Below are positions 29,680-59,264 of a DNA stretch of 64,000 nt, in pieces. The translations under genes were made by a program, and so were the position numbers. The DNA comes from Calditrichia bacterium. Lineage in GTDB: Bacteria > Calditrichota > Calditrichia > JAJRVZ01. The stretch is taken from assembly GCA_963796965.1 (NCBI GenBank), contig CAWCNS010000016.1, positions 290,673 to 354,672 on the forward strand. Direction: 5' to 3'. Under the pieces are notes generated by a model that did not search any database, was not told the DNA's origin, and saw only the letters and a list, made by a program, of their open reading frames with translations. Within the stretch, counting starts at the first letter, position 1; every line of letters begins with the position of its first letter.

Positions 29680-32600
29680 ATGATTTATAAGCCGCATGCT
29701 ACTTTCCTGATTTTGATTTCCTGCTTGATACTCTTTACTTCTGCTGGTATGGCAGCCGGCTCCCATAATAAAGAGTACCTCATTCGTATCGCAGGTGATC
29801 TTTCGTTAGAAATTGAAAACAGCCAGGCAAAGAATGCACCCGATTTTTTAAAAAAATCACTCCAGTTGGAAGACGGTTCGGAAATTACCAAAATTCTGGA
29901 TGTGCCAGCCTCTTTATTGTCGAGATGGTATCACATATCAATCGCACCCAATTCTCGAAATCAAATCTCAGCCCTTCAGCAAAATCGAGGTATAGAATTG
30001 GTCCAGGAAAACAATCATTTCCAGATACATGGACAGCTGATAAATGATTCCCTCTATTCAAATCAATGGTATCATAACAAGATTGGTGCCTTAGCATCAT
30101 GGGAAAATTATACCCTGAAACCGGAAGCACTTATTGCCATCATAGATACAGGTATTGACTATGAGCATCCGGATTTGGAGGGAAGTTTATGGATTAATGC
30201 AGAGGAGGACCTGAATGGCAATGGTCAATTGGATCCAGGTGACCAGAATAATCTTGATGACGATAACAACGGATATATTGATGATGTGATTGGTTGGGAT
30301 TTTACGGATGCGCCCCGACTAAACAGTGGGGGGGATGATACCAACCCTGATAATGATCCCATGGATGAGTATTCGGGTGGTCATGGTACAAAAATTGCCG
30401 GTATTATTGCTGCCCAAACGAATAATTATCGCGGTATATCGGGGTTGATTCCAGGTGCGAAGGTGATGAATTTGCGCTCGGGTACGGCAGATGGATATCT
30501 GGAAGAAGACGATGTTGCCCGAGCGGTGTTATATGCGATCAATAATGGTGCTAAGATTATTAATATGAGTTTTGGTGACGTGGTTCTTTCAAGATTTCTA
30601 AAAGATGTCATCGCGTATGCGTATTCTAAGGATATCATAATTGTTGCTTCCTCTGGAAATTCAGGCAATGATCAGGTCCATTATCCTTCTGGTCTTGCAG
30701 AAACTATTTCGGTTGGTGCTACAGATCAAAATGATAATCGGGCCAATTTTTCTAATTTCGGTGGAACCATTGACCTGGTGGCACCAGGTGTTGATATTCT
30801 AAGCACAAACCTGGGGGGAGGATATGGCATGGCCGGGGGAACAGCTTTAGCGCGCCTATGGTATCTGCGACAGCTGCTGTATTGATCTCTAAAAATAATG
30901 ATTTATCTGTTGAACAAGTCCGCAACCAATTAAAAACTTCAACTGATGATATCGGTGTACAAGGATGGGAACCCAAATTTGGCTCTGGCAGACTCAATAT
31001 GGAGAAAGCATCTCTAGTAAAGGACGAAAGTAGTCTGGTGATTCACCATCCCCGTACAGGATCGCACAGTGCTGATGACAGCATCGTGATTGTAGCCACA
31101 GCATTGGATCCAAATCTCATTTCACTGGATCTGGCTTATGGATTTGGTGCTGATCCCTTGGAGTGGATTGATATTCTAAAGGACTATGGATATCAAATTA
31201 TTGATGATACACTTGCAATTCTTCCCGTGGGAGTTATTCCGGATACTGTGCTGACATTGCGCTTACGTTTAAATACATGGCAGGGTCAAATTTCAGAAAA
31301 TCGCTCCCTGATAAGCCTGGACAGGACAGGACCAAAAATTGAAAATCACATGGTTGTTCGCCAACTTGATGGGGCTCAATATTCTTATCTTATAAAGTTT
31401 GAATCGGATGATGTTTGTACGGCTGATATCTTTATACGATCTAAGCCAGGTGATCAGGAATTTACCCCTGTTCATCTTTCCTACGAAACAAGAAACCATT
31501 ATTATCTGATTGGCCCAGAAAGAGATAGTGAATATTATTTAAAATTGACAAACTATAGTGGACTGGAAGAAATAGATGATAATAATGGTACTTATTTCCA
31601 ATTAAAATCAATTGATCAAAATATTATCCAAAATGAGTTTATTCAGACTGATCAATCTATTCCATCAGGGTACATTCTCACAGAGCCAATTGATTTTGAT
31701 CAGGATGGTAACTACGAGATCGTCATCTCAGCGTATGACGTAAATCGTAATTTTGGTCCGGTTGTTGTGTTTGAATGGGAAAACGGACAATTTGTCAAAC
31801 AGATGGAAACACCATTTAAAGCAATACCACGTTCCTTTGGTGATGCTGATAGTGATGGCAAACCGGAATTACTTTTGGGATATGGACAGAAAAGTTATTT
31901 ACTGGAATCCACGGGGTCTGATGGCTGGTCTTCACAAATTGTATGGTCAGATACAGGTGCTTTCTGGGCAAGTAGGATCACAGATCTTGACAATGATGGA
32001 ATTAATGAGATTCTGGGCAAGGAAGGACAGGATTTTGTCCTATATGAATCTACGGGAGACAATACTTTCTCAAAGGTTTTTACCTTTGAGAATTCGAGTC
32101 AGGGTAGTAATCAACTTGGTCCTCCACGAACTGAGATTGCTGATCTTGACAATGATGGATATTCTGAAATATATTTTGGTGACTATGATGGTGATATCAT
32201 TTCTTACGAGAATACGGGTAATGATACCTATAATTCGCTTGGATCTATTTCTCTTCCTCTGGAGGATGCAACAAATTTTTTTACTGCGTCAAACCAGACT
32301 TCGCAGGGTCTCCGATCATTGGTTGCTGGATCTCATACAAATACAAATGTAAGTGATGAGCATGAATTCGCTGCTCAATATTGGTCCTATTCAGTGATTC
32401 GGATGAATTCAAATAATTCCTACGAAATAAAGCAGGAAATTCCCGTCTACGGATATGCAGATCTTAGGGATTTCGAAGCAGGGTGCGCTACCGCTACCCT
32501 GAGTGAAAATGGTGAAGAGTTTGTTTTTCTTGCCCCATATCCTGATCTCTACGTTTTTAAAACAGAAGGCGACAGTCTCGTGCCAGTGTGGTATCATGAC

Positions 32601-33857
32601 GATGTAAATACAAACACCATCTTGGTATACGATTTTGATGGGGATAAAAAGAATGAATTCTTTTTTAATGGCAATGATCACATTGTTGCCTATACAGAAT
32701 CTCTCCTTGATAGGCCTCTCCCTCCATCCAACTTGGAGGCTTTTCCGCCTGATGAATCATCAATATCTCTCTCATGGAAAGCCGTCTCCCAGGCTGATAA
32801 ATATATTATTTACCGGGGGAATGATCCACAACATTTAGTCGCTTATGATTCTACTGAATGGGAACCCCTCTATATGGATAGAGATGTCGTTGAAGGGGAG
32901 CGCTATTTCTATGCCGTCGGTGTGGTTTCATTATCCTTTGAGCATATGTACAGTAATTTTAGTGAGACAGTTTCAGCAACTCCGAACGAAGCACCACAGA
33001 TTGATACCGTGCTGGTAAAAAATGAACGGCAGGTGGAACTGTATTTTAACGAGAAGATGGACATTAATTCGATGGCAACCGTAAATTTTTCACTTCTTGG
33101 AGAAGACAATCCGACCACATCTGCCATTTCTTTCTTCGATGGCCAGGCTGTATTACTCAGTTTTTTTCAACCATTCCAGGATGGAGAGATTTATGATTTG
33201 AGGATGCATGCGGTAAGAGATACAAACAGGACACCGTTGCTTGCCATGGACACCCTTCAGAATTTTACCTATTTTGCCCAAGCGGGCGATAAACCATATA
33301 TGCGGGAGTGGATCTATGCGGGAGATAGACGTCTGATTCTGAAATTTAATATGCCAATGGATCCAGAATCTATTTTAAATTCTGGTAATTATGATCTTGA
33401 GCCTTCCGGCTCTGTTATTGGCGTTGAACAAATAGGCACATCCAAAATGGATTTCCACATTAATCTCAGTAAAGATACATACCCCCCGGGTTCCGGAATC
33501 ACAACCTATTTGATAATGAATGGTTTGCAGAATGCACGGGGTGAACTTTTAAAGGAGGGGAATCGTATTGCTCTGATCAAAGCAGAGGATAATATTGATA
33601 ATATTATAGTGTATCCACAACCTGTTACCAGGGACAAAGACGGGCTTATGTTTGCAAATCTTATAATGGGAACAGAAATAAGAATATTTGATATAAATGG
33701 CCATTTTATTGTCTTGTTAAAGGAAGAGGATCAAAACGGTGGTATTAGATGGGATCTTAAGGATAATCGTGGACAAAAAGTTAACAGCGGAATTTTTCTT
33801 TATCAAGCTACCTTTGAAAATCAGAAGAAAATCGGTAAATTCACTATTATAAAATAA
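29680..33857 (+). CDS. Secreted subtilisin-like S8 peptidase with FG-GAP/VCBS-like repeats and T9SS-type C-terminal sorting domain, frame broken near 30843
   Basis: Signal peptide; catalytic Asp (IAIIDTGID) and His (HGTKIAG) in frame 1; the catalytic Ser motif (SFSAPMVSATAAVL) appears only after a -1 shift at about 30841-30845; FG-GAP-like repeats (DLDNDG, DFDQDGN); last approx 80 aa resemble a Por/T9SS CTD. Confidence 0.8.
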
Positions 33858-35435: not shown

Positions 35436-36819
35436 TCATCCAGCGTACTCAAGGCGTTTCTTTAATTCCTGCATTTTCTTTCTGAAAGTTTTATCCTCAT
35501 CCATCCTTTTTACCATCATTTTTTGTGCATAGATAACAGTGGTATGGTCCCGTCCGCCGAAGTGGAGTCCTATGTTGACGGTTGAGTGATTTGTTAATTC
35601 TACGCTAAGATACATTGCCGCCTGGCGAGCCAGGGCCACATGTTGTTTCCGATCCTTTTTCATAAACCGCTCTTCAGGTACATTAAAATGTTTGGATGTC
35701 ATTTGAATGATCTGCTCAATCGTAGAGCTGACGTGATCTTGGCTTTCCAATCTCTGCCACTACGCTTCTCGCCAATTCCAGGGTTGGCTCCGTTTGTGTC
35801 AATAGTACCTGGGCCATCAGCCTGGTTAACGCACCCTCCAGTTCACGGACATTATGAATAAGGTTTACAGCAAGAAATTCAATGATCTCATTGGGGATTT
35901 CCAGATCGTTCTCTTCGCATTTTTTACTTAATATAGCCATGCGGGTTTCCAGATCCGGTGGCTGTATATCTGCAATCAACCCCCATTGAAATCTTGAGAC
36001 AAGTCTTTCTTCTAAAAATCCAAGTTCAGCTATTGGGCGATCCGAAGTAAGTACAATCTGCTTTTCTTTTTGATGAAGTTCATTAAATGTATGAAAAAAC
36101 TCTTCCTGTGTTTTACCTTTATTGTTAAAAAATTGAATATCATCTATCAGGAGCAGGTCGCAAGAACGGTAAAAACTTGAAAACTCAATGGCTTTATTTT
36201 GTTGGATAGAAGATATAAAATGACTGGTAAAACTTTCACTGGACGTATAATATACCTTTAGATCAGGTTTTTTTTGTCTAACCTTATTACCAATTGCTTG
36301 AACAAGGTGGGTTTTTCCCAGACCTGTACCTCCATAAATAATCAGCGGATTGTAATTGGTCTTTCCGGGCGCATCGGCCACGGCGCTGGCAGCGGCATGG
36401 GCAAATCGGGTGCCATCGCCAACAATAAAATTTTCAAAATTATACTGCGCATTTAGATTCGTTTCGATTCGTGGCGATGCTTGTTTGGTGGCAGGAACCG
36501 GTTCTGTCTCAAAGGTATTACCGGTGTATGGCGAGGAGTAGGTTTCGTCTGCCATCACCTCATATTTTATTCCTAAAGAATGACCGGCAACCTGCGCGAC
36601 AGCATTTTGGAGTAGTTTTAAGTAATGATTATCAAGCCACTCACAGAAAAATTTGTTAGGAACCCTGAGAACAATAAAAGTTTCCGTCAGAGAAGTGGCT
36701 TTTAGAGGTGCAAACCAGGTTTGAAAACTACGTGGATTAATGTTTTCTTTAATGATTTCAAGACTTTCATTCCAGATGTGTTCGTACGAAGCCTGGGTGG
36801 CTTCTAAACTATTGGACAT
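35436..36819 (-). CDS. dnaA: Chromosomal replication initiator DnaA, frame broken between about 35716 and 35760
   Basis: Walker A GGTGLGKTHL, Walker B LLIDDIQF, sensor motifs in the 35716-36819 frame; DNA-binding domain IV (ARQAAMYL ... FGGRDHTTV) in the adjacent 35436-35750 frame. Confidence 0.85.
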
Positions 36820-41128: not shown

Positions 41129-42532
41129 ATGTATATAGATGATGATCAGCCCAAAGAATTTTGTGGTATTGTTGGTGTATATGGTACTCCCGAGGCTTCT
41201 ATACTATCTTACCTGAGTTTATACTCTCTACAGCATCGTGGACAGGAAAGCGCCGGAATAGCCTCTAGCGACGGAGAGCAAATCTATAAACATCTTGGGA
41301 TGGGGCTTGTCTCAGATGTGTTTAATGAACAAATCCTGAATGAACTTCCCGGACATCTGGCTATTGGTCATAACCGCTACTCTACTACCGGTTCTTCCAA
41401 TGTGCAGAATATTGGACCGATAGTAGTGAACCATCGGCTTGGAACAATTGGTGTCGCCCACAATGGGAATTTGGTTAATTCATTTACTCTACGAGAAAAA
41501 TTAGAAAAAAGAGGATCCATTTTTCAAACGACGACCGACAGTGAGGTGATCCTCCATCTTGTCGCAAAGTCTAAAGAAGAAACGATCGAAGCTAAAATTC
41601 TTGATGCTGTCAGGCGTATAAAGGGTGCATTCTCTTTAGTTTTCCTTACCCGGGATAAAGTTATAGCTGTACGTGATCCGCATGGGTTCAGGCCACTCGC
41701 CATTGGAAAAAAGGGAGATGCATATATTTTTGCCAGTGAAACCTCAGCCTTTGATCTGATCGGCGCTGAATATGTTCGTGATGTTAAATGTGCAGAGATG
41801 CTGGTTGTTGATGGGCAGGGATTGCGGTCATATGAGATACAGAAGAAAATAAAACCAACCCATTGTGTGTTTGAGTTTATTTATTTCTCGCGTCCTGATA
41901 GTCAAATATTTAACGAATATGTTGATAAAACAAGACGAAAGTTGGGTAAAAACCTGGCAATAGAAAATCCCTGCGATGCAGATATCGTAATAAGTGTTCC
42001 TGATAGCAGCAATACGGCCGCGCTAGGGTATGCCGCGAGAAGTGATGCAAAATTTGAGATTGGTTTGATTCGAAATCACTATGTAGGAAGAACTTTTATC
42101 CATCCAAAACAGAAATTGCGGGATATGAATGTTCGTATAAAATTCAATACTGTGGGCGGTGTGATAAAAGACAGAAGAATAATCATTGTTGATGATTCAA
42201 TTGTTAGGGGTACGACGCTTCGGGCATTGGTCAAGCGTTTAAGAGATGCAGGAGCGAAAGAAGTTCATGTACGTGTAAGTTCCCCTCCCATTATTTACCC
42301 TTGTTTTTATGGTATGGATTTTCCTACGAAGGAGGAACTTATTGCAAGTCAGAAGGAGGTCGAAGAGACGGCTGCATACCTGGGTGCCGATTCCCTCCGC
42401 TATCTCTCCTTAGAAGCGATGCTGAACGCCATGCCTAAAGACAATGGACAGGCCTATTGCACAGCGTGCTTTAGTGGAAAGTATCCTATTCAGATTGAAG
42501 AAAAGCAATTTAAAGAGCGTAATGAGGGCTGA
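41129..42532 (+). CDS. purF: Amidophosphoribosyltransferase
   Basis: N-terminal nucleophile Cys in CGIVGVYG; PRPP-binding IIIVDDSIVRGTT; full-length 467 aa. Confidence 0.9.
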   Translation: MYIDDDQPKEFCGIVGVYGTPEASILSYLSLYSLQHRGQESAGIASSDGEQIYKHLGMGLVSDVFNEQILNELPGHLAIGHNRYSTTGSSNVQNIGPIVVNHRLGTIGVAHNGNLVNSFTLREKLEKRGSIFQTTTDSEVILHLVAKSKEETIEAKILDAVRRIKGAFSLVFLTRDKVIAVRDPHGFRPLAIGKKGDAYIFASETSAFDLIGAEYVRDVKCAEMLVVDGQGLRSYEIQKKIKPTHCVFEFIYFSRPDSQIFNEYVDKTRRKLGKNLAIENPCDADIVISVPDSSNTAALGYAARSDAKFEIGLIRNHYVGRTFIHPKQKLRDMNVRIKFNTVGGVIKDRRIIIVDDSIVRGTTLRALVKRLRDAGAKEVHVRVSSPPIIYPCFYGMDFPTKEELIASQKEVEETAAYLGADSLRYLSLEAMLNAMPKDNGQAYCTACFSGKYPIQIEEKQFKERNEG

Positions 42533-43478
42533 AAAGAATAACAGTTGGCTTTCCCGCCTGGATTATATTTTCCTCCTAAGACCCATGCTGTTTTTTCCTG
42601 GCTGGTCAACTATGCTGGCAGGTTATTTTATATCCACAAAAGATTACCTGATACCAATTCCTGGCCAAGATGTCGGCTATCTGACTATCTTCCTGTTGAT
42701 CTCTGGTTTTGCCATGCTCATGGGCAGCGCCTTTGTACTTAATCAATTAAGAGATATTGAAAGCGATAAAAAAAATAATAAATTATTTATTATATCAGAT
42801 GGAATTGTATCACCCTCTTCCGCCAGGAAAGAAGTCTTTATTCTTACGGTGCTATCAATAATCATAGGATTTTATCTTAATTATTTTGTAGGTATCCTAT
42901 TTATCTTATTTTTTGTTATAACGGGCATATTATATAATTATAAGCCTGCTTCCATGAAAGATCGACCCTGGGGATCTCTAATTGCCAATGCTTTAATGGG
43001 GTGGCTGGCATTTAGTATTGGCTGGTCGGTGAACTTTGAACCAGGAATGCCGCTGATCATCGACTCGCTCCCTTATTTTTGCTTTAACACAGCTCTATAT
43101 TTATTTACGCTTTTGCCTGATGTGAAGGGTGATAGGGTGGCAGGCAAGAAAACATTAGCAGTCGTACATGGAACAAAGAAGGTGATTCTCTGGGCATCCC
43201 TTCTATATGCTATTGGTCTGATAATTACAATTGCTGTTGTTGATTACCAGGCTCTTTTATTCTATCTGCTTTCGTTGCCATTTTTCGTGAAGAGTATCGC
43301 CACACGCCAGGTTCCTGATGCAATCAGAACCACAAAGTTTGGTATATTATTCTTTGCCCTGAGCATATGTTTACGCTGGCCCTATTATCTCGGGTTAATG
43401 GTTGCGGGATTTTTTATAACAAAATGGTATTTTAAGCATAGATTCGATTTTGAATATCCCAATTTTGCAGGGAAATAA
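42522..43478 (+). CDS. UbiA-family aromatic/isoprenoid prenyltransferase (integral membrane)
   Basis: Polytopic membrane protein with NQxxDxxxD (NQLRDIESD) and a second Asp-rich motif DVKGD; start placed at the ATG at 42522 overlapping the purF stop. Confidence 0.6.
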   Translation: MRAEKNNSWLSRLDYIFLLRPMLFFPGWSTMLAGYFISTKDYLIPIPGQDVGYLTIFLLISGFAMLMGSAFVLNQLRDIESDKKNNKLFIISDGIVSPSSARKEVFILTVLSIIIGFYLNYFVGILFILFFVITGILYNYKPASMKDRPWGSLIANALMGWLAFSIGWSVNFEPGMPLIIDSLPYFCFNTALYLFTLLPDVKGDRVAGKKTLAVVHGTKKVILWASLLYAIGLIITIAVVDYQALLFYLLSLPFFVKSIATRQVPDAIRTTKFGILFFALSICLRWPYYLGLMVAGFFITKWYFKHRFDFEYPNFAGK

Positions 43479-43484
43479 TTATTG

Positions 43485-43625
43485 GGAGAGAAGGGCGAAG
43501 ACGTGGAGCGTGGAGAGTTGAGCGAAAAGTGAAAAGAGAAGACAGAAAACGTGGAGCGTGGAGAGTAGAGCGTGCAGGGGCAGACCGCGTCGAAGATCCC
43601 GTTATACGGGGAGTCTGTCCTGGAT
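43485..43625. repeat. Composite intergenic repeat, copy A: direct repeats ACGTGGAGCGTGGAGAGT plus GGGGCAGACCGC-hairpin module
   Basis: ACGTGGAGCGTGGAGAGTNGAGCG occurs twice (43501-43523, 43549-43571); followed by GCAGGGGCAGACCGCGTCGAAGATCCCGTTATACGGGGAGTCTGTCC with a GC-rich stem-loop; related copies at 49306-49400 (inverted) and 50400-50470. Confidence 0.7.
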
Positions 43626-43882
43626 AGTGTTATCATGAATATGAATGCGACCGAAAAAATATATAAACGTCAAAGACGTCAAAGAAGGCACGAAGTACAC
43701 AAAGAACTATTTCTTATTTAAATCTTCATCATCTTAGTGCCTTCTTTGCGAACTTTGTGGTAGTCTTTTTAAATTTGACCCCTTAAAACGGGGCGCTCAG
43801 AATATTTAATTATAAATAATTCGTGAAATATGTTAAAATTAGTGGCATTCGTGGATAAAAGTATTCATTATTAATGCAGAAC

Positions 43883-43932
43883 CAAGTATCCAGAATCGAG
43901 CATCGAGAATCGAGAATCAAGTATCGAGAATC
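43883..43932. repeat. Short tandem repeat array (about 7-bp unit AATCGAG, 6 imperfect copies) just upstream of the ferredoxin start codon
   Basis: GAATCGAG CATCGAG AATCGAG AATCAAG TATCGAG AATCAAG read directly from the sequence. Confidence 0.7.
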
Positions 43933-43938
43933 AAGAAT

Positions 43939-44118
43939 ATGATTAAATTATATGAAAATACCTGCGATTTTTGCGGTACTTGTGTCGGTGTCTGCCCGGA
44001 AAATTGCATAGAATTGGAAGAAACCAGACTTACGGTAGATCACGATTTATGCACCCTCTGTAATAAATGTGTATGGATCTGTCCCGTGGAAGCTCTTTAT
44101 AAAGAAAATGTAACATGA
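43939..44118 (+). CDS. Small 2x[4Fe-4S] ferredoxin (FixX-like), not in the supplied ORF track (59 aa)
   Basis: Translation MIKLYENTCDFCGTCVGVCPENCIELEETRLTVDHDLCTLCNKCVWICPVEALYKENVT: two CxxCxxCxxxCP motifs; its stop overlaps the start of the downstream flavoprotein (ATGA). Confidence 0.7.
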   Translation: MIKLYENTCDFCGTCVGVCPENCIELEETRLTVDHDLCTLCNKCVWICPVEALYKENVT

Positions 44119-45311
44119 AAATAGATGAATGCTATGATGTAATCGTTGTTGGTGCTGGTCCTGCCGGAAGCCTGGCTGCTTATACGGCTGCAAAGGAAGG
44201 TGTATCAGTACTCTTGCTGGAAAAGGACAGGGAAATTGGCACACCGGTAAGATGTGCTGAAGCGGTGGGAAAAGACAGCCTTGATAATCTGCTTGATCAG
44301 GGCATTGATCCCAAATGGTTGGCAGCTACGATAAAAAAGTTCAGATTTGTTGCCCCCGACGGTTCAATCGTTTACCCGCAGGTGCCGATGACCGGCTATG
44401 TGTTAAATCGGAAGATTTTTGATTATGATTTGGCTCGTTATGCTGCTGAGGCAGGAGCGGTCGTTAGAACAAGAGCTTATGTCTCTGCTCTCTTGTGGGA
44501 AAATGATGCGATTGCTGGTGTAAAATGCCTGTTAGGTAAAGAAGAAAAGTACATAAAATCAAAAATAGTTATTGGGGCAGATGGGGTTGAATCAAGAGTG
44601 GCACGTTGGGCAAATATTGATACAACGACGGCAATGCGTGATATGGAAACATGCTCTCAGATGACCCTGGCGAATTTGTCCATCGATGATGATACATGTG
44701 CTTTCTACTTTTCGCAGAAAAAATTCCCGGGAGGATATGCCTGGGTCTTTCCTAAAGGCAATGGTACTGCAAATGTCGGATTGGGAATTTCAGGAAATAA
44801 TGCCCGCCAAAAATCAGCAGATTCCCTGCTCGCGTCATTTGTGGCGGAAACATTTCCTGCTGCATCTGTATTAAATAAAACCGTGGGTGGCGTGCCTTGT
44901 GCAGATCGCCCGAAAAAGATTTCTGCACCTGGTTTGCTCCTGGCCGGGGATGCCGCCATGCAAACTAATCCGGTTTCCGGAGGTGGAATCGCTACGGGAA
45001 TGACGGCTGGAAAAATAGCGGGAAGGATTGCAGCCAAGGCCATTAAATCTAATGACGTTTCTTTATCTTTTTTTGAAACCTATGAAAAAGAGTGGGACAA
45101 AGCCTGTGGAAATATCCAAAAACGTTATTACCGGTTAAAGGAAGGAATTAGTAAACTCACCGATGAGCAATTGAATAGAACGGCCGCTACCTTGAAAGAC
45201 GTCCCTCTGGAAAAACAAACACTAGTAAAGATTTTTCAGACAGCATTAATCAAACAACCGGCATTACTTGTAGATGTTCTAAAGACACTAAGTCCGTTTT
45301 CCAAACGATAA
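44115..45311 (+). CDS. FAD-dependent oxidoreductase of the geranylgeranyl-reductase / FixC family
   Basis: N-terminal FAD motif DVIVVGAGPAGSLAA, typical GGR-family length (398 aa), translationally coupled to the upstream ferredoxin. Confidence 0.75.
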   Translation: MKIDECYDVIVVGAGPAGSLAAYTAAKEGVSVLLLEKDREIGTPVRCAEAVGKDSLDNLLDQGIDPKWLAATIKKFRFVAPDGSIVYPQVPMTGYVLNRKIFDYDLARYAAEAGAVVRTRAYVSALLWENDAIAGVKCLLGKEEKYIKSKIVIGADGVESRVARWANIDTTTAMRDMETCSQMTLANLSIDDDTCAFYFSQKKFPGGYAWVFPKGNGTANVGLGISGNNARQKSADSLLASFVAETFPAASVLNKTVGGVPCADRPKKISAPGLLLAGDAAMQTNPVSGGGIATGMTAGKIAGRIAAKAIKSNDVSLSFFETYEKEWDKACGNIQKRYYRLKEGISKLTDEQLNRTAATLKDVPLEKQTLVKIFQTALIKQPALLVDVLKTLSPFSKR

Positions 45312-45656: not shown

Positions 45657-46577
45657 TTGGTAAAGTTTTTTAATCGAATTCAATCTAGTCTAAAAAAAAC
45701 ACGTGAAGGTGTTTTTGGAAAATTAAACAGAATTTTCACAGCCAAACGAAATATTGATGATGATCTACTCGATGAAATTGAGGAAATTCTAATCGCTGGT
45801 GATGTTGGTGTTGATACGTCTCTGGATATTATAGATAAAATAAAAGAACGTGTGCGTGCGGAAAAGTATGAAACCAGCGATGAACTGGAGTATCTGATCC
45901 GAGATGAAATCTCCGGTATTCTTCTTCCACCTGAGGTACCTGAGGAAAAGAATCAACAAGGATTACAGGTTGTACTTGTGGTCGGGGTGAATGGTACTGG
46001 TAAAACCACTTCGATTGCTAAATTAGCAAAGTTTTATATGAACCAGAACAAAAAGGTACTTTTAGCCGCTGCTGACACCTTTCGTGCTGCGGCAATTAAT
46101 CAGTTGAGTATTTGGGCAGAAAGGGTAGGTTGCGATATTATCAAACATCAGGATGGTGCTGATCCATCGGCTGTTGTGTTTGACGCGGTTAATGCCGCCC
46201 AGGCCAGAGATGTAGACTTCCTCATAATTGATACGGCCGGCCGACTACACACTAAATCAAATCTTATGGCAGAATTAAGTAAAATATCACGTGTTGTTCA
46301 AAAGAAAATTCCTGAAGCACCTCACCAGATAATCCTTGTCCTTGATGCCAGTACAGGGCAAAATGCCATCAATCAAGCGAAGGAGTTTAAGCAATCTGCC
46401 CAGGTTAATTCAATATTTTTAACCAAATTAGATGGTACGGCAAAGGGTGGGGTTGTCCTGGCTATAAATAAAGAATTACAGATACCCGTGAAATATATTG
46501 GCACCGGAGAACAGTTAGATGATATGGATGTGTTTGATGCAAATTCATTTGTGGAAGGATTATTTCTAAGAGAATGA
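45657..46577 (+). CDS. ftsY: Signal recognition particle receptor FtsY
   Basis: NG-domain motifs VGVNGTGKTT, DTAGR, TKLDGTAKGG; TTG start after AAGGAGAGG RBS. Confidence 0.9.
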   Translation: MVKFFNRIQSSLKKTREGVFGKLNRIFTAKRNIDDDLLDEIEEILIAGDVGVDTSLDIIDKIKERVRAEKYETSDELEYLIRDEISGILLPPEVPEEKNQQGLQVVLVVGVNGTGKTTSIAKLAKFYMNQNKKVLLAAADTFRAAAINQLSIWAERVGCDIIKHQDGADPSAVVFDAVNAAQARDVDFLIIDTAGRLHTKSNLMAELSKISRVVQKKIPEAPHQIILVLDASTGQNAINQAKEFKQSAQVNSIFLTKLDGTAKGGVVLAINKELQIPVKYIGTGEQLDDMDVFDANSFVEGLFLRE

Positions 46578-49261: not shown

Positions 49262-49400
49262 TTTGTGAATTATTCTGTCCACGAATTTGATAATGTAATT
49301 GTCATTGCGGTCTGCCCCTACACTCTCTACTCTCCACCCTCTACGCACCGCACTCTTCTCTCTTCCCACACCTCTCCACCCTACATCAAAAACTTGAATA
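49262..49400. repeat. Composite intergenic repeat, copy C (inverted orientation), lacking the 28-bp hairpin module
   Basis: Reverse complement reads GTGGAGAGTAGAGAGTGTAGGGGCAGACCGC|AATGACAATTACATTATCAAATTCGTGG; identical to copy B except that GTCGAAGACCCCGTTAACCGGGGCCCTG is absent. Confidence 0.7.
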
Positions 49401-49506: not shown

Positions 49507-49580
<74 letters not shown>

Positions 49581-49746
49581 CAAGAGGCGGCACCATCCTC
49601 TGGGTTCTCCCCCTACCCAAATTTGGTGCTGCGGCAGAGAATGACGATAACGCTCGGTTTTGAGGTTGTCCCCCGGCCTTCAAGCCAGCCAGTCATTCTC
49701 TGTTTTTTTTCTGGAACAAATGAGAATTTGAATCGTTTTTAAACTA

Positions 49747-50099
49747 TGGGGACGATCTGGCTTCGACGGGCAGGATGCGGTTACGGATGGCATTCCGGGA
49801 TTATCGGATAGCCCGTGATTATCCGGTAGCACGACAAGTGCCGATTATGATTACGCAATGGCAGCCTAACTAGGTCTGTCACATCCTGAGGGACACTAAT
49901 CTACCGGGGTTTTTCAGGATGCCATTTTGGGTAGATCGATTCTTGAGGGTGTCAGGACCTTAAGAATTGTATTCTTCTGACTCGCAAAATTGTTGGTTGG
50001 TTATCATACCTGCAATGATGTTAAATCTAAATGATGACTAAGAATGTAGAGGTCTGTAATGGTGCCTGTTCGGACCCGGGTTCAATTCCCGGCGTCTCC
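49747..50099 (+). ncRNA. ssrA: tmRNA (SsrA), one-piece
   Basis: 5' end GGGGACGATCTGGCTTCGACGGG and 3' tRNA-like end GGACCCGGGTTCAATTCCCGGCGTCTCCA match tmRNA termini; candidate tag reading frame ends ...ADYDYAMAA with TAA at 49867-49869. Confidence 0.85.
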
Positions 50100-50260
50100 A
50101 CTAGTTCGGTAGAGAGTAGAGCGTAGAGCGTTAAGAGAAGAAGAGAGAAGAGGGAAGACAGAAGAGAATATGAGTTAAATATTCTCTCCTCGCTCTTCTC
50201 TCTTCCTTTTTTGTATTATACCTCACCCTCTACTCTTTACGCTCAACTCTCAACGGTAAA
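50100..50260. repeat. Purine-rich / pyrimidine-rich imperfect palindrome with GTAGAGCGT-type repeat words immediately 3' of tmRNA
   Basis: GGTAGAGAGTAGAGCGTAGAGCG then AGAAGAGGGAAGACAGAAGAGAATAT ... ATATTCTCTCCTCGCTCTTCTCTCTTCC (inverted arms), then CT-rich reverse copies of the same words. Confidence 0.6.
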
Positions 50261-50264
50261 AAAG

Positions 50265-50396
50265 ATGTCCACAACCCTTATGATCGCTATTCTCGCAATA
50301 GTAGTAGTTTACCTTCTCATCGCTTCAAAAAATCAACGAAAAAAATCAAACGAAGTTAAACGTCAGGGTGAAAGACCGTGCCTGGCGAAGGGATGA
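50265..50396 (+). CDS. Hypothetical 43-aa single-TM peptide (possible small membrane protein / type-I-toxin-like)
   Basis: MSTTLMIAILAIVVVYLLIASKNQRKKSNEVKRQGERPCLAKG: hydrophobic helix followed by a basic tail; no strong RBS; lies between tmRNA and repeat copy B. Confidence 0.3.
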   Translation: MSTTLMIAILAIVVVYLLIASKNQRKKSNEVKRQGERPCLAKG

Positions 50397-50399
50397 CCG

Positions 50400-50530
50400 T
50401 GAAGCGTAGAGCGTGGAGAGTAGAGAGTGTAGGGGCAGACCGCGTCGAAGACCCCGTTAACCGGGGCCCTGAATGACAAGTAAATATATTCGTGAAATTC
50501 TGTAAAAATTAGTGTAATTCGTGGTTAAAA
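50400..50530. repeat. Composite intergenic repeat, copy B (most compact complete copy)
   Basis: GTAGAGCGTGGAGAGTAGAGAGTGTAGGGGCAGACCGC + hairpin module GTCGAAGACCCCGTTAACCGGGGCCCTG + AATGACAAG + motif ATTCGTGAAATTCTGTAAAAATTAGTGTAATTCGTGGTTAAAA. Confidence 0.7.
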
Positions 50531-50560
50531 TCTTCCAAGAATTCACACCTACCCAGTATT

Positions 50561-50590
50561 GACATTGAATTGAAAAGTATCTAAATTTAA
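50561..50590 (+). promoter_or_regulatory. Candidate sigma-70-type promoter for tRNA-Gly
   Basis: TTGACA at 50561-50566, about 17-bp spacer, TAAATT -10-like hexamer, about 24 nt upstream of the tRNA 5' end. Confidence 0.35.
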
Positions 50591-50612
50591 CGTCCAAATA
50601 TAATAGTAATCT

Positions 50613-50686
50613 ATATGAAGAAGCGAGAGTAGACTCAGCTGGTAGAGCATCACGTTGCCAACGTGATTGTCGCGGGTTCAAATCCC
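50613..50686 (+). tRNA. tRNA-Gly (anticodon GCC)
   Basis: Acceptor GCGAGAG/CTCTCGC, D-loop with GG, anticodon loop TTGCCAA, T-loop TTCAAAT, discriminator T; followed by a T-run. Confidence 0.85.
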
Positions 50687-50900
50687 GTCTCTCGCTCTTT
50701 TTTTATTTGTGCAGACCACAAGTAAAAATTTTGGATTTCAGATTGCGGAATTTGGATTTAATTCCAAAATCCGAATCCGAAATCCAAAATTGAATGGCGA
50801 CGTACTCCCGCAAGACTAGAGCGGCCAGTAGACTTAAGGTAATCGAGTTGTTTGACAATAAACCGAGAAATGGATCGGGAGCGAATATTTATATTATTAC

Positions 50901-50973
50901 GGCGACGTACCCAAGTGGCTAAGGGAGAGGTCTGCAAAACCTTTATGCGGCGGTTCGAATCCGCCCGTCGCCT
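50901..50973 (+). tRNA. tRNA-Cys (anticodon GCA)
   Basis: Acceptor GGCGACG/CGTCGCC, anticodon stem GAGGT/ACCTT with loop CTGCAAA, T-arm GGCGG-TTCGAAT-CCGCC, discriminator T. Confidence 0.85.
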
Positions 50974-51073
50974 CCTCATAATAAGAAAAAAGACAAAAGA
51001 AATAAGAAAAAAGAATGTGACATGGATATTAAATTCATTTTTCATTAATCATTTTTCTATTGTCTTGATTCCC

Positions 51074-51159
51074 GCCGGGGTGGTGGAATTGGTAGACACA
51101 AGGGACTTAAAATCCCTCGGGAGTTAAATCCCGTACCGGTTCAAGTCCGGTCCCCGGTG
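51074..51159 (+). tRNA. tRNA-Leu (anticodon TAA), type II with long variable arm
   Basis: Acceptor GCCGGGG/CCCCGGT, anticodon stem AGGGA/TCCCT with loop CTTAAAA, long variable arm CGGGAGTTAAATCCCGT, T-arm ACCGG-TTCAAGT-CCGGT. Confidence 0.85.
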
Positions 51160-51166
51160 ATACCAC

Positions 51167-52504: not shown

Positions 52505-53401
52505 TTAAAAGAAAGATTTAGCATTGCTTTTAATTTCTGCATATTTATCAGGTTCATTGTCGTTCTCAATTGTCTCTTTATTCTTTTCCTTATCTTTTTT
52601 ATCGATTACAACAATACAGTCTGTTGGGCATTTATCTGTAGGTACCATTGTCTCCGTTCCATATAATTGATAGTTAATTTGAGCCAAATTATCTACTATG
52701 TTGATTTGGCCTTCATCAACAGCACGAACACAGATTCCACAAGCAATACAGGCTTTGGTGCATACTTTCCTGGCAATCTTTGGATTATCTTTATTTTTAC
52801 ATAATATGAAAAGTTTATGATTCTCAGGATGCAGTTCAATGACGCTACGTGGGCAGGCTTCAACACATTTACCACAACCAGTGCATTTGTCCTCTATTAC
52901 AACCGGTAGCCCGTTATTATTCATGTACATCGCATCAAAGGGGCAGGCATCAACACAATCACCATAACCGATACAACCGAATTCGCAGAGTTTTTCTCCC
53001 CCACCGACAATTGAAGCAGCAAGACATGAATGAATTCCTATGTATTCTGCTTTTTTCGCTGTTTCAACCATACCACCTTGACACATGACTCTGGCGATCA
53101 TTCGCTCTCTTTTTTCACTTCTACTCCCATAATTTCAGCGATTTCTTGAAGTGCCTCAGCAGAACAGACAGAGCAAATATCTATTTCAGCGTTCCCATTC
53201 ACCACATTTTCTGCAAAACTCGTGCATCCTGGGAATGCCACATGCACCACAATTTGCTCCTGGAAGTAGTTCACTAATCCGGCTGATACGAGGATCTTCC
53301 TCCACATGAAATATTTTATTTGCAATTGCAAGACCAATAGAGAAGATAAGGCCAAGTCCTCCCATGGCAAGTAGGGCTATAGAAATTGTGCTAATATCCA
53401 T
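52505..53401 (-). pseudogene. RnfB-like Fe-S ferredoxin (membrane anchor, CxxC Fe-S domain, 2x[4Fe-4S]), split into three frames
   Basis: N-terminal TM and PGANCGACG (53186-53401), then FPGCTSFAENVVNGNAEIDICSVCSAEALQEIAEIMGVE (53098-53370), then VMCQGG plus two CxxCxxCxxxCP ferredoxin motifs (52505-53101). No other rnf genes are adjacent. Confidence 0.7.
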
Positions 53402-57436: not shown

Positions 57437-59264
57437 ATGGAAACAAAATATTTTAAAAATAAGGAAGACTTAACTATTGCCATTATAGGCAGTGGTGGTG
57501 AGGGGTCATCTCTGCTGGTGAAATTTTACTTCGCGCCGGTTCTCAAAATGGTTTATATGGAATGATGTTAAAGAGCTATGGACCGCAAATTCGTGGTGGT
57601 GAAACTATGGCCCAAATTCGAATGAAAAATTCACTGGTTTTATCACAAGGTGATCTAATCGATGCGTTAATTATTCTAAATTGGGATCATTACTATCGCT
57701 TTGAGGAGGAGATATCTCTAGATGACAGGACAGTAATCTTTCATGATAACATTGAAATGCTTCCCCCAGACTTGTCATTTCCCCAAAAGATTCAATTTTT
57801 AGGGGTGCCGTTTACTGAAATTGCAAAAAAAACGTCAGGTACATCGAAATCCAAAAATCTTGTCGCACTTGGTTTTCTATCAGGTTGGTTTGGGTTGGGA
57901 AAAAAGGTTTTGAACGCGAGATTCAGCGACAATTTACCGGAAAAAACAAGGACATAATTTATGGTAACTTAAAATCTTTCAAAAAAGGGCTAGAATTGGC
58001 TGAAAGCAACAAAGCCGCAACACCTTTTGATTGGTCAAGTAAGAACCACAATCCAAAAATGATTTTAACCGGCAATGAGGCGATATCTTTAGGGTCTTTA
58101 TTTCGCTGGGGTGCAATTCTATGCTGGTTATCCTATTACGCCTGCCAGTGAAATTATGGAGTGGATGGCAAATGAGCTGCCAAAGTTTGAAGATATTTTC
58201 ATACAGACAGAAGATGAAATTACGGCAATTACAATGGCCATCGGAGCTTCATTTGCCGGAGCTAAATCAATGACTGCCACCTCTGGTCCAGGACTGTCTC
58301 TTATGACAGAAGCCATTGGTCTGGCTGCTATGGCAGAATTACCTGTTGTTATTGTGGATGTACAACGAGTAGGACCGAGTACCGGAATTCCAACAAAAAC
58401 AACCCAGGCAGACCTCTTTCATGCTGTTTTTGGCGGTCACGGCGATTATCCGCGCGTAGTTTTAGCCCCCGTAAACGTAGCCGATGCGATTACTATTGCT
58501 GTACATGCCTTTTATCTATCGGAAAAATATCAATTACCTGTGATTATACTAAGTGACCAATTTATAGGCCAACGTCTTGAGATTATTCCCCAGGTTGATT
58601 TTAAAGCAATGCAATCAATGGTTATAAATCGATCTCTTCCTTCAATCGAAGAATTACATAACTATAGCAGGTATAAAATGACTCCAAACGGTGTTTCACC
58701 GCTATCGAAACCAGGAATTAAAAACGGTATGTATACTGCATATGGCATTGAACACGATGAATTGAGTTTGCCAACATCTTCCTCTAATATCCAGAAACGG
58801 ATGAACAGGAAACGTTTGAAGAAAAATCAGACAATTTTGCAGCAGGAATCCGACATATTACTTCGTCTCGGTAATATGAATCCCAGGATTGGTATCCTTA
58901 GCCTGGGGATCTACCACAGGTGCTATTCAAGAAGCTGATTTCTTCACTCCTGGAAGATGATTATAACATCGGTACTATCGTACCACGCCAATTGAAACCA
59001 TTACCTACCAATCAAATTCAGTCATGGGTGAACCACTTAGAAGAATTGATTATTTTTGAGTTATCCGAGGGACAATTTTATACCTATTTAAAGAGTGAAA
59101 TAATATTGCCCAGAAAAACAGGTCTATTTGCTCGTCCGGGAGTGAACCCATTTACAGTGAATGAAATAATAAAGGCAATTATAGAAAGTAAATTAAAATG
59201 GAAATCTATTCAACAAAAGATTACAAAGCAATTTAAAACCGGTATGGTGCCCTGGTTGTGGTGA
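57437..59264 (+). pseudogene. korA: 2-oxoacid:ferredoxin oxidoreductase alpha subunit (KorA-like, gamma-alpha fusion), at least 4 frame disruptions
   Basis: ATG at 57437; IAIIGSGGEG then, after restoring one G at about 57514-57518, VISAGEILLRAGSQNGLYGMMLKSYGPQIRGGE; further pieces 57885-58151, 58111-58938 (YAGYPITPASEI, TSGPGLSLM) and 58920-59264. Confidence 0.7.

What the first reader, a model, noticed from the sequence alone, without database searches (positions are those of the whole stretch)
42522..45311. UbiA-family prenyltransferase followed by a translationally coupled mini-ferredoxin and a geranylgeranyl-reductase-family flavoprotein
A UbiA-type membrane prenyltransferase (NQLRDIESD, DVKGD) is followed, after a repeat-rich spacer, by an unannotated 59-aa 2x[4Fe-4S] ferredoxin whose stop overlaps the start of a GGR/FixC-family FAD enzyme. 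A ferredoxin-GGR pair next to a prenyltransferase is the arrangement expected for ferredoxin-driven saturation of a prenylated lipid or quinone. In FCB-group bacteria, homologues of archaeal ether-lipid enzymes have been discussed, so substrate identity (menaquinone-type versus isoprenoid glycerol ether) is worth testing.
Basis: inference. Interest (0 to 1): 0.45.

Follow-up and report, generated by a model that had tools for sequence, protein, structure and literature searches.

The report
Orphan prenyltransferase beside ferredoxin–isoprenoid reductase pair
A Calditrichia bacterium carries an uncharacterised membrane prenyltransferase next to a small ferredoxin and an archaeal-type isoprenoid-chain reductase, probably a small pathway for a saturated isoprenoid membrane lipid, but the prenyltransferase is not the "archaeal lipid synthase" homologue already reported from these bacteria.

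Summary
A 318-aa UbiA-superfamily prenyltransferase (42522-43478) is followed by a 460-nt repeat-bearing spacer. Then come a 59-aa 2x[4Fe-4S] ferredoxin (43939-44118) and a 398-aa geranylgeranyl reductase (GGR, 44115-45311) whose ATG overlaps the ferredoxin stop.

The reductase is a true GGR. It passes TIGR02032, its best solved relative is the Thermoplasma lipid reductase, and it has Cys47, PGGYAWVFP and LAGD. It is not FixC.

The ferredoxin-GGR pair, usually with the same 4-nt overlap, recurs in Calditrichota, KSB1-like genomes and Kryptoniota. It parallels the Methanosarcina GGR-plus-ferredoxin system.

The prenyltransferase is neither MenA/UbiA nor a recognised DGGGP synthase. It belongs to an orphan family (about 280 clusters at 50% identity) closest to the orphan AfUbiA, chlorophyll synthase and DGGGPS. 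In Caldithrix abyssi the family member (APF19683.1) is a different protein from the published "DGGGPS orthologue" (APF18322.1).

UbiA always sits between purF or a PHP-like gene and ftsY. Ferredoxin-GGR follows it in about 16 of about 47 informative genomes and GGR alone in 7. In six KSB1-like loci a pgsA-like phospholipid head-group transferase follows GGR.

Best reading: prenylation of an unknown lipid acceptor, then ferredoxin-driven chain saturation. The acceptor is unproven. Interest is moderate.

The parts
41129..42532 (+). purF (amidophosphoribosyltransferase). This is the upstream neighbour, and its stop overlaps the UbiA start by 11 nt. It is context only, not part of the pathway.
   Evidence: Pfam GATase_7/GATase_6/Pribosyltran. 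The purF-UbiA overlap or abutment recurs in relatives.
42522..43478 (+). Orphan UbiA-superfamily membrane prenyltransferase, 318 aa. It has motif 1 N74xxxD78xxxD82, motif 2 Y138...K146, motif 3 D200xxGD204 and a family-specific C-terminal tail RFDFEYPNFAGK.
43479..43938 (.). Lineage-specific intergenic spacer with a dispersed G-rich repeat (43487-43573) and a GAATCGAG-type tandem (43873-43938). In most relatives the UbiA stop and the ferredoxin start are 0-70 nt apart.
   Evidence: Repeats; dispersed copies. Spacer lengths: 0-7 nt in L004-L006, L016, L044 and L048, and 226 nt in L002. Alignment with L002 shows that about 205 nt are extra in the window. No Rfam family matches. Promoter and terminator scans are at chance level.
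43939..44118 (+). 59-aa 2x[4Fe-4S] clostridial-type ferredoxin, the presumed electron donor to the reductase.
   Evidence: Fer4 E=1.5e-14 and FdxA_fam E=4e-10. The eight cluster Cys are conserved in every locus read in full, at 48-93% identity to the window across phyla.
44115..45311 (+). Geranylgeranyl-reductase-family flavoprotein, 398 aa. The GxGxxG FAD fold, Cys47, RKIFD, PGGYAWVFP and LAGD are all present. Its ATG overlaps the ferredoxin stop (ATGA).
   Evidence: GGR_cat PF22578 at 85 bits. TIGR02032 at 229 bits, above its 159 cutoff. 3oz2 at 208 bits with 37% identity over 369 columns.
45657..46577 (+). ftsY. With rimO and a GWxTD protein it forms the conserved downstream boundary of the slot that holds UbiA and, variably, ferredoxin-GGR.
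   Evidence: Pfam SRP54; synteny table.

Best explanation
Proposed two-step lipid-tailoring unit in a Calditrichia genome:
1. The orphan UbiA enzyme uses its Mg2+-binding Asp motifs to ionise a polyprenyl diphosphate and transfers the chain to a membrane-embedded acceptor. The donor is most likely C20 geranylgeranyl diphosphate, because that is the donor of its nearest characterised relatives, ChlG/BchG, HPT and DGGGPS. The acceptor is most likely a hydroxyl or carboxyl group of a glycerolipid-type molecule rather than a naphthoquinol or benzoate.
2. The FAD enzyme GGR saturates the double bonds of that chain. It draws low-potential electrons from the co-translated 2x[4Fe-4S] ferredoxin, which is itself reduced by enzymes such as the pyruvate:ferredoxin oxidoreductase also encoded in the window.

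Shown: the identities and intactness of the three genes; the conservation of the ferredoxin-GGR module; the placement of the UbiA outside the quinone and canonical DGGGPS families.

Inferred: that GGR acts on the UbiA product, that the chain is C20, and that the acceptor is a glycerolipid.
For: - GGR identity and catalytic motifs are established.
- Ferredoxin directly precedes GGR, usually with a 4-nt overlap, in the window's clade, in KSB1-like genomes, in Kryptoniota (L061/L062) and in L063. This is the same pairing whose function was shown for M. acetivorans (PMC9385802; PMC10821996).
- Of roughly 47 informative loci, UbiA is followed by Fd-GGR in about 16 and by GGR alone in 7. These include clades whose UbiA is only 34-40% identical to the window's, so the arrangement looks ancestral.
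- The three characterised UbiA subfamilies closest to this one (ChlG/BchG, HPT, DGGGPS) all work with a GGR partner (scores; the partnership itself is established knowledge).
- Lipid context: a pgsA-like CDP-alcohol phosphatidyltransferase follows GGR in 6 KSB1-like loci. plsY-gpsA follow UbiA in L024. cdsA lies two genes upstream in L064. A YegS-type lipid kinase lies five genes upstream in the window and its relatives.
- POR subunits occur at 57.5-60 kb in the window.
Against: - In 24 loci (Calditrichaceae, including C. abyssi) UbiA is followed directly by ftsY, with no GGR within 10 kb.
- In L063 Fd-GGR occupies the same purF-ftsY slot without UbiA, and in Kryptoniota Fd-GGR sits elsewhere. 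The adjacency could therefore be inherited synteny within a very conserved housekeeping block (purF, ftsY, rimO) rather than an operon.
- In the window a 460-nt spacer separates UbiA from Fd-GGR.
- No acceptor-specific residues could be identified, and the nearest solved relative (AfUbiA) has itself no known acceptor (PMC4106721).
- No GGGPS, G1PDH, GGPP synthase or CarS is encoded in the 64-kb window.
Confidence: 0.45

Rival explanations
1. Synteny without shared pathway. The Fd-GGR module works on products made elsewhere, such as archaeal-type ether lipids from the separate GGGPS and DGGGPS-like genes reported for Calditrichaeota/KSB1, or polyprenols. The orphan UbiA makes an unrelated prenylated molecule. 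The genes are neighbours only because both sit in an ancient conserved block.
For: - Both partners occur alone in the same slot: 24 loci with UbiA directly followed by ftsY, and L063 with purF-Fd-GGR-ftsY.
- The surrounding genes (purF, ftsY, rimO, GWxTD) are functionally unrelated yet equally syntenic.
- C. abyssi has a separate GGGPS (WP_006928776.1) and a separate DGGGPS-annotated protein (APF18322.1). Villanueva et al. report both homologues in Calditrichaeota and KSB1 and relate FCB GGRs to euryarchaeal lipid reductases.
- The window has a 460-nt spacer between UbiA and Fd.
Against: - The UbiA-(Fd)-GGR order with gaps of 0-70 nt is kept across clades whose UbiA is only 34-40% identical to the window's.
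- The nearest characterised UbiA subfamilies are precisely those that partner with GGR.
- A pgsA-like gene joins the cluster in KSB1-like genomes.
Confidence: 0.3
2. Quinone route. The UbiA is the lineage's menaquinone (MenA/MqnP-like) prenyltransferase, and Fd-GGR partially saturates the menaquinone side chain, as MenJ does in mycobacteria and as archaeal menaquinone-specific prenyl reductases do.
For: - The gene is ubiquitous in the clade and sits in a housekeeping position, as a respiratory-quinone gene might.
- Automated names from JGI call it 4-hydroxybenzoate or DHNA prenyltransferase.
- AfUbiA, the closest structure, comes from an archaeon that makes saturated menaquinone (my own knowledge), and its acceptor is unknown.
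Against: - MenA models score 40 bits or less against cutoffs of 102-522, and ubiA_other scores 32 against 181.
- The family profile gives E. coli MenA 28 and UbiA 23 bits, against 68-85 bits for AfUbiA, ChlG and DGGGPS.
- ApUbiA and UBIAD1 are not found by the sequence profile even at E<=10.
- GGR scores 76 bits on the MenJ model (cutoff 700), against 227 on a lipid-reductase model.
- The recurring neighbours are phospholipid genes, not men or mqn genes.
Confidence: 0.12
3. The UbiA is itself a functional DGGGP synthase (a second, divergent one). It adds the second geranylgeranyl chain to GGGP, so the cluster is the bacterial counterpart of archaeal DGGGPS plus GGR plus ferredoxin.
For: - The best single-sequence PDB hit and the top Foldseek hit are MjDGGGPS.
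- The best NCBIfam hit, PRK12884, is numbered next to the DGGGPS models PRK12882 and PRK12883. That it belongs to the same group is my recollection, not something I tested.
- GGR is of the archaeal lipid-reductase type.
- The pgsA-like neighbour would fit, since bacterial PgsA accepts CDP-archaeol (established knowledge; Villanueva 2021 obtained PG-archaeol in E. coli).
Against: - All DGGGPS equivalog cutoffs are missed by a wide margin.
- It is not the protein identified as the DGGGPS orthologue in C. abyssi.
- It is never next to GGGPS in about 60 loci.
- Published surveys report no G1PDH for Calditrichaeota.
Confidence: 0.1
4. The flavoprotein is a FixC-type ETF-quinone oxidoreductase with its FixX-like ferredoxin, unrelated to isoprenoid reduction.
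For: FixC proteins also come with a small ferredoxin (FixX). There are weak FixC hits of 37-47 bits over the N-terminal FAD fold.
Against: - The GGR catalytic domain PF22578 and the PxxYxWxFP motif are present, and the full-length match to GGRs is far stronger.
- No etfAB/fixAB is found in any of about 60 neighbourhoods.
Confidence: 0.02

Closest known systems
Methanosarcina acetivorans GGR (MA1484) with its neighbouring ferredoxin (Isobe et al. 2014, as summarised in PMC9385802 and PMC10821996)
   Same: An FAD-dependent geranylgeranyl reductase of the euryarchaeal lipid-reductase type is encoded next to a small [4Fe-4S] ferredoxin that supplies its electrons. The synteny is conserved across many lineages.
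   Different: Here the host is a bacterium. The ferredoxin lies upstream and overlaps the GGR start, whereas in the archaeon it is described as downstream. The substrate is unknown, and dependence on the ferredoxin has not been tested.
Thermoplasma acidophilum digeranylgeranylglycerophospholipid reductase (PDB 3oz2)
   Same: It is the best solved relative: 208 bits and 37% identity over 369 columns. It has the same Cys47, PxxYxWxFP and LxGD motifs and the same length.
   Different: The window protein scores far below the NCBIfam equivalog cutoff (227 against 780), so it is a family member, not an orthologue. The Thermoplasma enzyme can use NADH in vitro; this one is paired with a ferredoxin.
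AfUbiA, the orphan UbiA homologue of Archaeoglobus fulgidus (PDB 4tq3)
   Different: The AfUbiA acceptor is itself unknown, so the resemblance gives no function. The window family has its own invariant C-terminal RFxxxYPNFxG tail.
Archaeal DGGGP synthase (MjDGGGPS, PDB 6m31) and the validated Ca. Cloacimonetes GGGPS/DGGGPS pair (Villanueva et al. 2021)
   Same: Both lie in the same branch of the UbiA superfamily and work in a pathway with a GGR. The published FCB GGRs are of the same archaeal type as this one (43% identity to the first 135 residues of the Cloacimonetes NIOZ-UU1 GGR).
   Different: This UbiA is not co-localised with GGGPS and misses the DGGGPS model cutoffs. In C. abyssi it is a paralogue of the protein that the literature counts as the DGGGPS orthologue.
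Chlorophyll/bacteriochlorophyll synthase (ChlG/BchG) with ChlP/BchP, and homogentisate phytyltransferase
   Same: Profile similarity is comparable (71 bits to Synechocystis ChlG; HPT and BchG models at E about 1e-15). These enzymes use a C20 donor and have a GGR partner that reduces geranylgeranyl to phytyl.
   Different: I found no photosynthesis or tocopherol genes in the window or in the neighbourhoods I scanned, and all model cutoffs are missed.

Membership tests
UbiA prenyltransferase superfamily (PF01040) | Pfam model matched above the gathering score | tested here: met
   86.4 bits against a cutoff of 34.2.
UbiA prenyltransferase superfamily (PF01040) | Asp-rich motif 1 NxxxDxxxD, the Y...K motif, and second Asp motif DxxxD | tested here: met
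   N74/D78/D82, Y138/K146 and D200/D204 are invariant or nearly so in 47 family members. The motifs are as defined for MjDGGGPS in PMC9385802.
UbiA prenyltransferase superfamily (PF01040) | All-helical membrane fold of about nine transmembrane helices | tested here: met
MenA / UbiA / MqnP quinone prenyltransferases | Curated NCBIfam equivalog score reached | tested here: not met
   The best MenA model scores 40.8 bits (cutoff 277), TIGR00751 28 (cutoff 102), and ubiA_other 32 (cutoff 181).
MenA / UbiA / MqnP quinone prenyltransferases | Closer to quinone enzymes than to other UbiA branches | tested here: not met
   The family profile scores EcMenA 27.8, EcUbiA 22.5 and EcCyoE 20.3 bits, against AfUbiA 84.6, ChlG 70.5 and MjDGGGPS 67.9. 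ApUbiA and UBIAD1 are absent from the profile hits at E<=10.
DGGGP synthase | Curated NCBIfam DGGGPS equivalog score reached | tested here: not met
   PRK12872.1-1 scores 38.6 (cutoff 278), PRK12882 28 (cutoff 296) and PRK12883 20 (cutoff 353).
DGGGP synthase | Orthology with the FCB protein published as the DGGGPS homologue | tested here: not met
   The C. abyssi member of this family is APF19683.1/WP_006926683.1. The published DGGGPS orthologue is APF18322.1.
DGGGP synthase | Genomic association with GGGPS and a G1P source | tested here: not met
   There is no PcrB/GGGPS or G1PDH in the window, nor in the neighbourhoods for which Pfam gene tables were returned. The rest of the genome could not be searched.
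DGGGP synthase | Transfers geranylgeranyl to GGGP | not testable with these tools
   This needs an enzyme assay or heterologous expression.
Geranylgeranyl reductase family (TIGR02032 / PF22578) | Family models matched above cutoff | tested here: met
   TIGR02032 scores 229.1 against 158.8, and GGR_cat 84.7 against 27.
Geranylgeranyl reductase family (TIGR02032 / PF22578) | Catalytic Cys47, PxxYxWxFP cavity motif, LxGD and RxxFD FAD motifs, GxGxxG | tested here: met
   The window protein has C47, P205GGYAWVFP, L276AGD, R99KIFD and G13AGPAG. The motif definitions are from PMC10821996.
Digeranylgeranylglycerophospholipid reductase (equivalog level) | Curated equivalog cutoff | tested here: not met
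   NF041160 scores 226.6 (cutoff 780) and NF041080 173.7 (cutoff 580). These are the closest named models, but the protein is not an orthologue by NCBI's criterion.
FixC / ETF-quinone oxidoreductase | FixC model score and neighbouring etfAB/fixAB | tested here: not met
   NF007542 scores 47 bits (cutoff 610) and PDB 7koe FixC 37 bits. No ETF genes appear in any neighbourhood.
2x[4Fe-4S] clostridial-type ferredoxin | Two CxxCxxCxxxCP motifs in a protein of about 55-65 aa | tested here: met
   Cys 9/12/15/19 and 38/41/44/48. Fer4 scores 53.6 bits. The Cys are conserved in all orthologous ORFs read in full.
Ferredoxin-dependent GGR system (M. acetivorans type) | Conserved adjacency of GGR and a small ferredoxin | tested here: met
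   In about 20 loci from at least four lineages the ferredoxin stop overlaps or abuts the GGR start. The gene order is the reverse of the archaeal description.
Ferredoxin-dependent GGR system (M. acetivorans type) | GGR activity requires the ferredoxin | not testable with these tools
   This needs co-expression or reconstitution.

The most novel reading that the evidence does not exclude
The orphan UbiA family is a bacterial isoprenoid-glycerolipid synthase distinct from DGGGPS. For example, it could ether-link a geranylgeranyl chain to a glycerol-phosphate lipid such as GGGP or even a bacterial lyso-phosphatidate. With ferredoxin-GGR, and in KSB1-like genomes the adjacent PgsA-like head-group transferase, it would form a self-contained bacterial route to saturated isoprenoid (or hybrid acyl/isoprenoid) phospholipids in Calditrichota and KSB1. 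That would be a second, independent bridge across the lipid divide besides the Cloacimonetes GGGPS/DGGGPS pair.
Probability: 0.18. Interest if true: 0.8.

Novelty: new variant of a known kind. Interest (0 to 1): 0.42.

Why it matters
Whether FCB-group bacteria really make archaeal-like isoprenoid lipids is an open question bearing on the "lipid divide". So far the discussion rests on GGGPS/DGGGPS homologues.

This locus adds three things:
- Bacteria of several FCB-related phyla carry the full ferredoxin-plus-GGR reducing module known from methanogens, and it is conserved as an overlapping gene pair.
- In Calditrichota and KSB1 that module is ancestrally coupled to a second, uncharacterised UbiA prenyltransferase that has been overlooked, or lumped together with DGGGPS or "4-hydroxybenzoate prenyltransferase".
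- The three-gene set is small (four genes with pgsA in KSB1-like genomes), so it can be tested directly by expression in a GGPP-producing E. coli.

If the product is a glycerolipid, it would reveal a new bacterial lipid class. If it is a quinone or another cofactor, it would assign a function to a whole orphan branch that includes the structurally solved but functionless AfUbiA.

Tried and rejected
- Looking up the window's own UbiA and GGR in the gene-position collection: not on record. The rest of this genome could therefore not be searched for GGGPS, G1PDH, MenA or the DGGGPS-like paralogue.
The scan with A1 is limited to two peptide patterns and did not return C. abyssi, although that genome has the gene. 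Its counts are therefore lower bounds and biased towards close relatives.
- Retrieving the validated Cloacimonetes DGGGPS/GGGPS sequences from the Villanueva supplement: the tables are truncated in the held copy. Only the first 135 residues of the GGR could be used.
- Isobe et al. 2014 (PMC3911245) is not held. The ferredoxin dependence is cited through two reviews.
- Rfam on the whole window found nothing in the spacer. Sigma-70 promoter and terminator scans were at chance level, so I make no claim about transcription units.
- A search for a second UbiA paralogue in about 1 Mb of fetched loci found none.
- The FixC/ETF-QO reading was rejected on scores and context.
- Chlorophyll or tocopherol synthesis was rejected for lack of any supporting genes and because the model cutoffs are missed.
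- In the automated classification, L046 was mislabelled as "UbiA-GGR" and misplaced in the tree because of an ORF-end error. Searches show that it has the ferredoxin.

Full report
**Observation**

- ORF listing gives a UbiA-type ORF at 42444-43478, a 59-aa ORF at 43939-44118 and a 398-aa ORF at 44115-45311, all on the + strand.
- Database orthologues of the first protein are 318 aa and begin at the ATG at 42522. That start overlaps the stop of purF (41129-42532) by 11 nt.
- Pfam assigns PF01040 UbiA (86 bits), Fer4 (E=1.5e-14, two stretches) and GGR_cat plus FAD_binding_3 to the three proteins.
- The ferredoxin has two CxxCxxCxxxCP motifs. Its TGA overlaps the ATG of the reductase (ACATGAAA).
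- The 460-nt spacer contains two copies of a ~38-nt G-rich repeat and a GAATCGAG-type tandem that abuts the ferredoxin start.
- The G-rich core recurs in two other intergenic places of the window: 8 matches against 0.04 expected.

**Reliability of the sequence**

The window has indel errors. dnaA is split by a frameshift near 35724, and several other genes look split or truncated. The three genes of interest are full length relative to their homologues.

**Organism and conservation**

- The closest proteins come from Calditrichia/Calditrichota metagenome-assembled genomes.
- Neighbourhoods of relatives show a very stable block: RidA, YegS-type lipid kinase, DUF5683, a small ORF, a PHP-like protein, purF, UbiA, then variably ferredoxin and GGR, then ftsY, rimO and a GWxTD protein.
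- I classified about 57 non-redundant loci from a scan of species-representative genomes, plus the window. UbiA is followed by ferredoxin-GGR in about 16, by GGR without ferredoxin in 7, directly by ftsY in 24, and by something else or a contig end in the rest (L046 corrected).
- The ferredoxin-GGR arrangement occurs both in the window's clade and in deep KSB1-like clades whose UbiA is only 34-40% identical to the window's. It is therefore probably ancestral, with later losses or relocations.
- In most relatives the UbiA stop and the ferredoxin start are 0-70 nt apart. The window's 460-nt spacer is a lineage-specific expansion: its 80%-identical relative L002 has 226 nt with similar repeats.

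**The reductase**

- It passes the GGR family model TIGR02032 (229 bits, cutoff 159).
- Its closest named models are archaeal digeranylgeranylglycerophospholipid reductases (227 and 174 bits, both below the equivalog cutoffs). BchP/ChlP scores 122, MenJ 76 and FixC 47 bits.
- The best solved relative is the Thermoplasma acidophilum lipid reductase 3oz2 (208 bits, 37% identity over 369 columns). FixC (7koe) scores 37 bits.
- The motifs used to define archaeal GGRs are present: GxGxxG, Cys47, RxxFD, PxxYxWxFP and LxGD (definitions in PMC10821996).
- It is 43% identical to the first 135 residues of the Ca. Cloacimonetes GGR listed by Villanueva et al..
- The FixC alternative is rejected.

**The ferredoxin-GGR module**

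- The same small ferredoxin directly precedes GGR, usually with a 4-nt overlap, in four settings: the window's clade, KSB1-like genomes, Kryptoniota (after dnaG and a thioesterase), and a genome where the pair sits between purF and ftsY without any UbiA.
- All eight cluster cysteines are conserved in every locus where the ORF was read in full.
- This parallels M. acetivorans, whose GGR needs the ferredoxin encoded beside it. That synteny is conserved in many Euryarchaeota (PMC9385802; PMC10821996). The gene order is reversed here.
- I regard ferredoxin as the physiological reductant of this GGR as likely (about 0.85), by analogy and conservation, not by test.

**The prenyltransferase**

- It reaches no curated NCBIfam model. 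The best is PRK12884 at 57 bits (cutoff 269). MenA, ChlG, DGGGPS, HPT and CtaB models all score 20-42 bits.
- A full HMMER scan of 1.84 billion cluster representatives finds a discrete family: 281 clusters at E<1e-30 with end-to-end matches, 541 at E<1e-10 and 2527 at E<1e-3.
- The family has an invariant C-terminal tail, RFxxxYPNFxG.
- A profile of 47 diverse members scores 84.6 bits on AfUbiA (4tq3), 70.5 on Synechocystis chlorophyll synthase and 67.9 on MjDGGGPS. It scores only 27.8, 22.5 and 20.3 on E. coli MenA, UbiA and CyoE.
- ApUbiA and UBIAD1 are not detected by sequence at E<=10.
- A crude NJ tree puts AfUbiA as sister to the family.
- The AF2 model is confident (pLDDT 94) and has the UbiA fold, but fold searches do not separate subfamilies.
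- AfUbiA itself has no known acceptor (PMC4106721).
- The family therefore lies in the DGGGPS/ChlG/AfUbiA branch, not the quinone branch, and it is an orphan.

**It is not the published FCB "DGGGPS"**

- Coleman et al. 2019 and Villanueva et al. 2021 report GGGPS and DGGGPS homologues, but no G1PDH, in Caldithrix/Calditrichaeota and KSB1.
- Coleman's supplement names the Caldithrix proteins. GGGPS is WP_006928776.1, and DGGGPS is APF18322.1, annotated as geranylgeranylglycerol-phosphate geranylgeranyltransferase.
- The C. abyssi member of the window's family is a different protein: EHO39799.1 / WP_006926683.1 / Calab_0146 / APF19683.1.
- That protein sits in the same PHP-like-UbiA-ftsY slot as the window's gene.
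- The lineage therefore has at least two UbiA enzymes of this branch, and the one next to GGR is the uncharacterised one.

**Clues to the acceptor**

- The window encodes no GGGPS, G1PDH, polyprenyl synthase or men genes.
- Across relatives the recurring extra neighbours are glycerophospholipid genes:
  - A pgsA-like CDP-alcohol phosphatidyltransferase lies directly after GGR in six KSB1-like loci (PF01066 at about 120 bits; TIGR00560 at 100-117 bits, cutoff 109).
  - plsY and gpsA follow UbiA in one Calditrichaceae locus.
  - uppS and cdsA lie just upstream of a distant family member.
  - A YegS-type lipid kinase lies five genes upstream in the window.
- The characterised subfamilies nearest to this UbiA (ChlG/BchG, HPT, DGGGPS) all use a C20 donor and work with a GGR.
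- These points favour a membrane-lipid product over a quinone, but none is decisive.

**Mechanism proposed**

- UbiA ionises a polyprenyl diphosphate, probably GGPP, on its two Asp-motif Mg2+ sites and transfers the chain to a lipid acceptor. The catalytic residues are shown; the donor and acceptor are inferred.
- GGR then reduces the chain's double bonds with FAD and Cys47. The ferredoxin re-reduces GGR, and is itself reduced by enzymes such as the POR encoded at 57.5-60 kb.
- My confidence that UbiA and Fd-GGR act in one pathway is about 0.45.
- The main rival, at about 0.3, is that they are neighbours only by inherited synteny. Each occurs alone in the same slot, and the surrounding genes are unrelated housekeeping genes.
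- A quinone route (about 0.12) and a bona fide second DGGGPS (about 0.10) remain possible. FixC is excluded.

**Novelty and verdict**

- The gene families are known, and FCB GGRs of archaeal type have been noted before.
- What appears to be undescribed in the papers I could search is the conserved bacterial ferredoxin-GGR overlapping pair and its ancestral linkage to a distinct orphan UbiA family in Calditrichota and KSB1, with pgsA joining in KSB1-like genomes.
- This is a new variant of a known kind, of moderate interest. It gives a compact, directly testable candidate for bacterial isoprenoid lipid synthesis.

Noticed in passing
window 43487-43573, 49322-49345, 50398-50428: A dispersed short G-rich repeat (core CGTGGAGCGTGGAGAGT, about 7-nt periodicity) occurs in three intergenic places, two of them flanking the tmRNA/tRNA cluster: 8 matches against 0.04 expected. 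A related repeat is present in the homologous spacer of L002. Its nature is unknown (a REP-like element?).
   Followed up: partly
window 35445-36819 (-); also 23222-24458, 25450-26244, 29680-33857, 57562-60053: dnaA is split by a frameshift near 35724 (tblastn frames -2 and -3). The S8 peptidase, an amidohydrolase, a sigma-54 activator and the POR subunits also look split or truncated. This probably reflects indel errors in the assembly rather than pseudogenes.
   Followed up: partly
window ~6700-8000: GC skew turns from negative to positive near 8 kb, and gene orientation switches from - to + at 6.7-7.0 kb. This suggests the replication origin lies there, about 29 kb away from dnaA.
   Followed up: no
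L044, L046, L048, L049, L050, L054 (for example L050:12321-12920): In KSB1-like genomes a pgsA-like CDP-alcohol phosphatidyltransferase lies directly after GGR, giving purF-UbiA-Fd-GGR-pgsA-ftsY.
   Followed up: yes
L024:9465-11744: In one Calditrichaceae genome UbiA is followed by a DUF4416 protein, plsY and gpsA (bacterial G3P-lipid genes) instead of ftsY.
   Followed up: partly
L063:6212-13793 and L061:7804-9164: The ferredoxin-GGR pair with a 4-nt overlap also exists without UbiA. In L063 it occupies the same purF...ftsY-rimO-GWxTD slot. In Kryptoniota it lies after dnaG and a 4HBT thioesterase and is followed by a DUF7033 protein and an EamA transporter.
   Followed up: partly
window 43443-43478 (UbiA residues 307-318): The UbiA family ends in an invariant tail, R-F-x-x-x-Y-P-N-F-x-G, which I did not see in the aligned parts of AfUbiA, ChlG or MjDGGGPS. 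Its role is unknown; it could be a partner-binding or cap element.
   Followed up: no
window 49507-51160: A tmRNA (49748-50103, tag ADYDYAMAA) lies within a cluster of tRNA-Lys, Gly, Cys and Leu genes.
   Followed up: no
window 52505-53101 (-): A 198-aa protein with several 4Fe-4S motifs (polyferredoxin-like) lies on the minus strand. It is unrelated to the 59-aa ferredoxin.
   Followed up: no
L042:10979-12358 and L053:11033-12439: In two Calditrichia genomes a roughly 460-aa Na+/H+-exchanger-like membrane protein lies between UbiA and ftsY, where ferredoxin-GGR sits in the window.
   Followed up: partly
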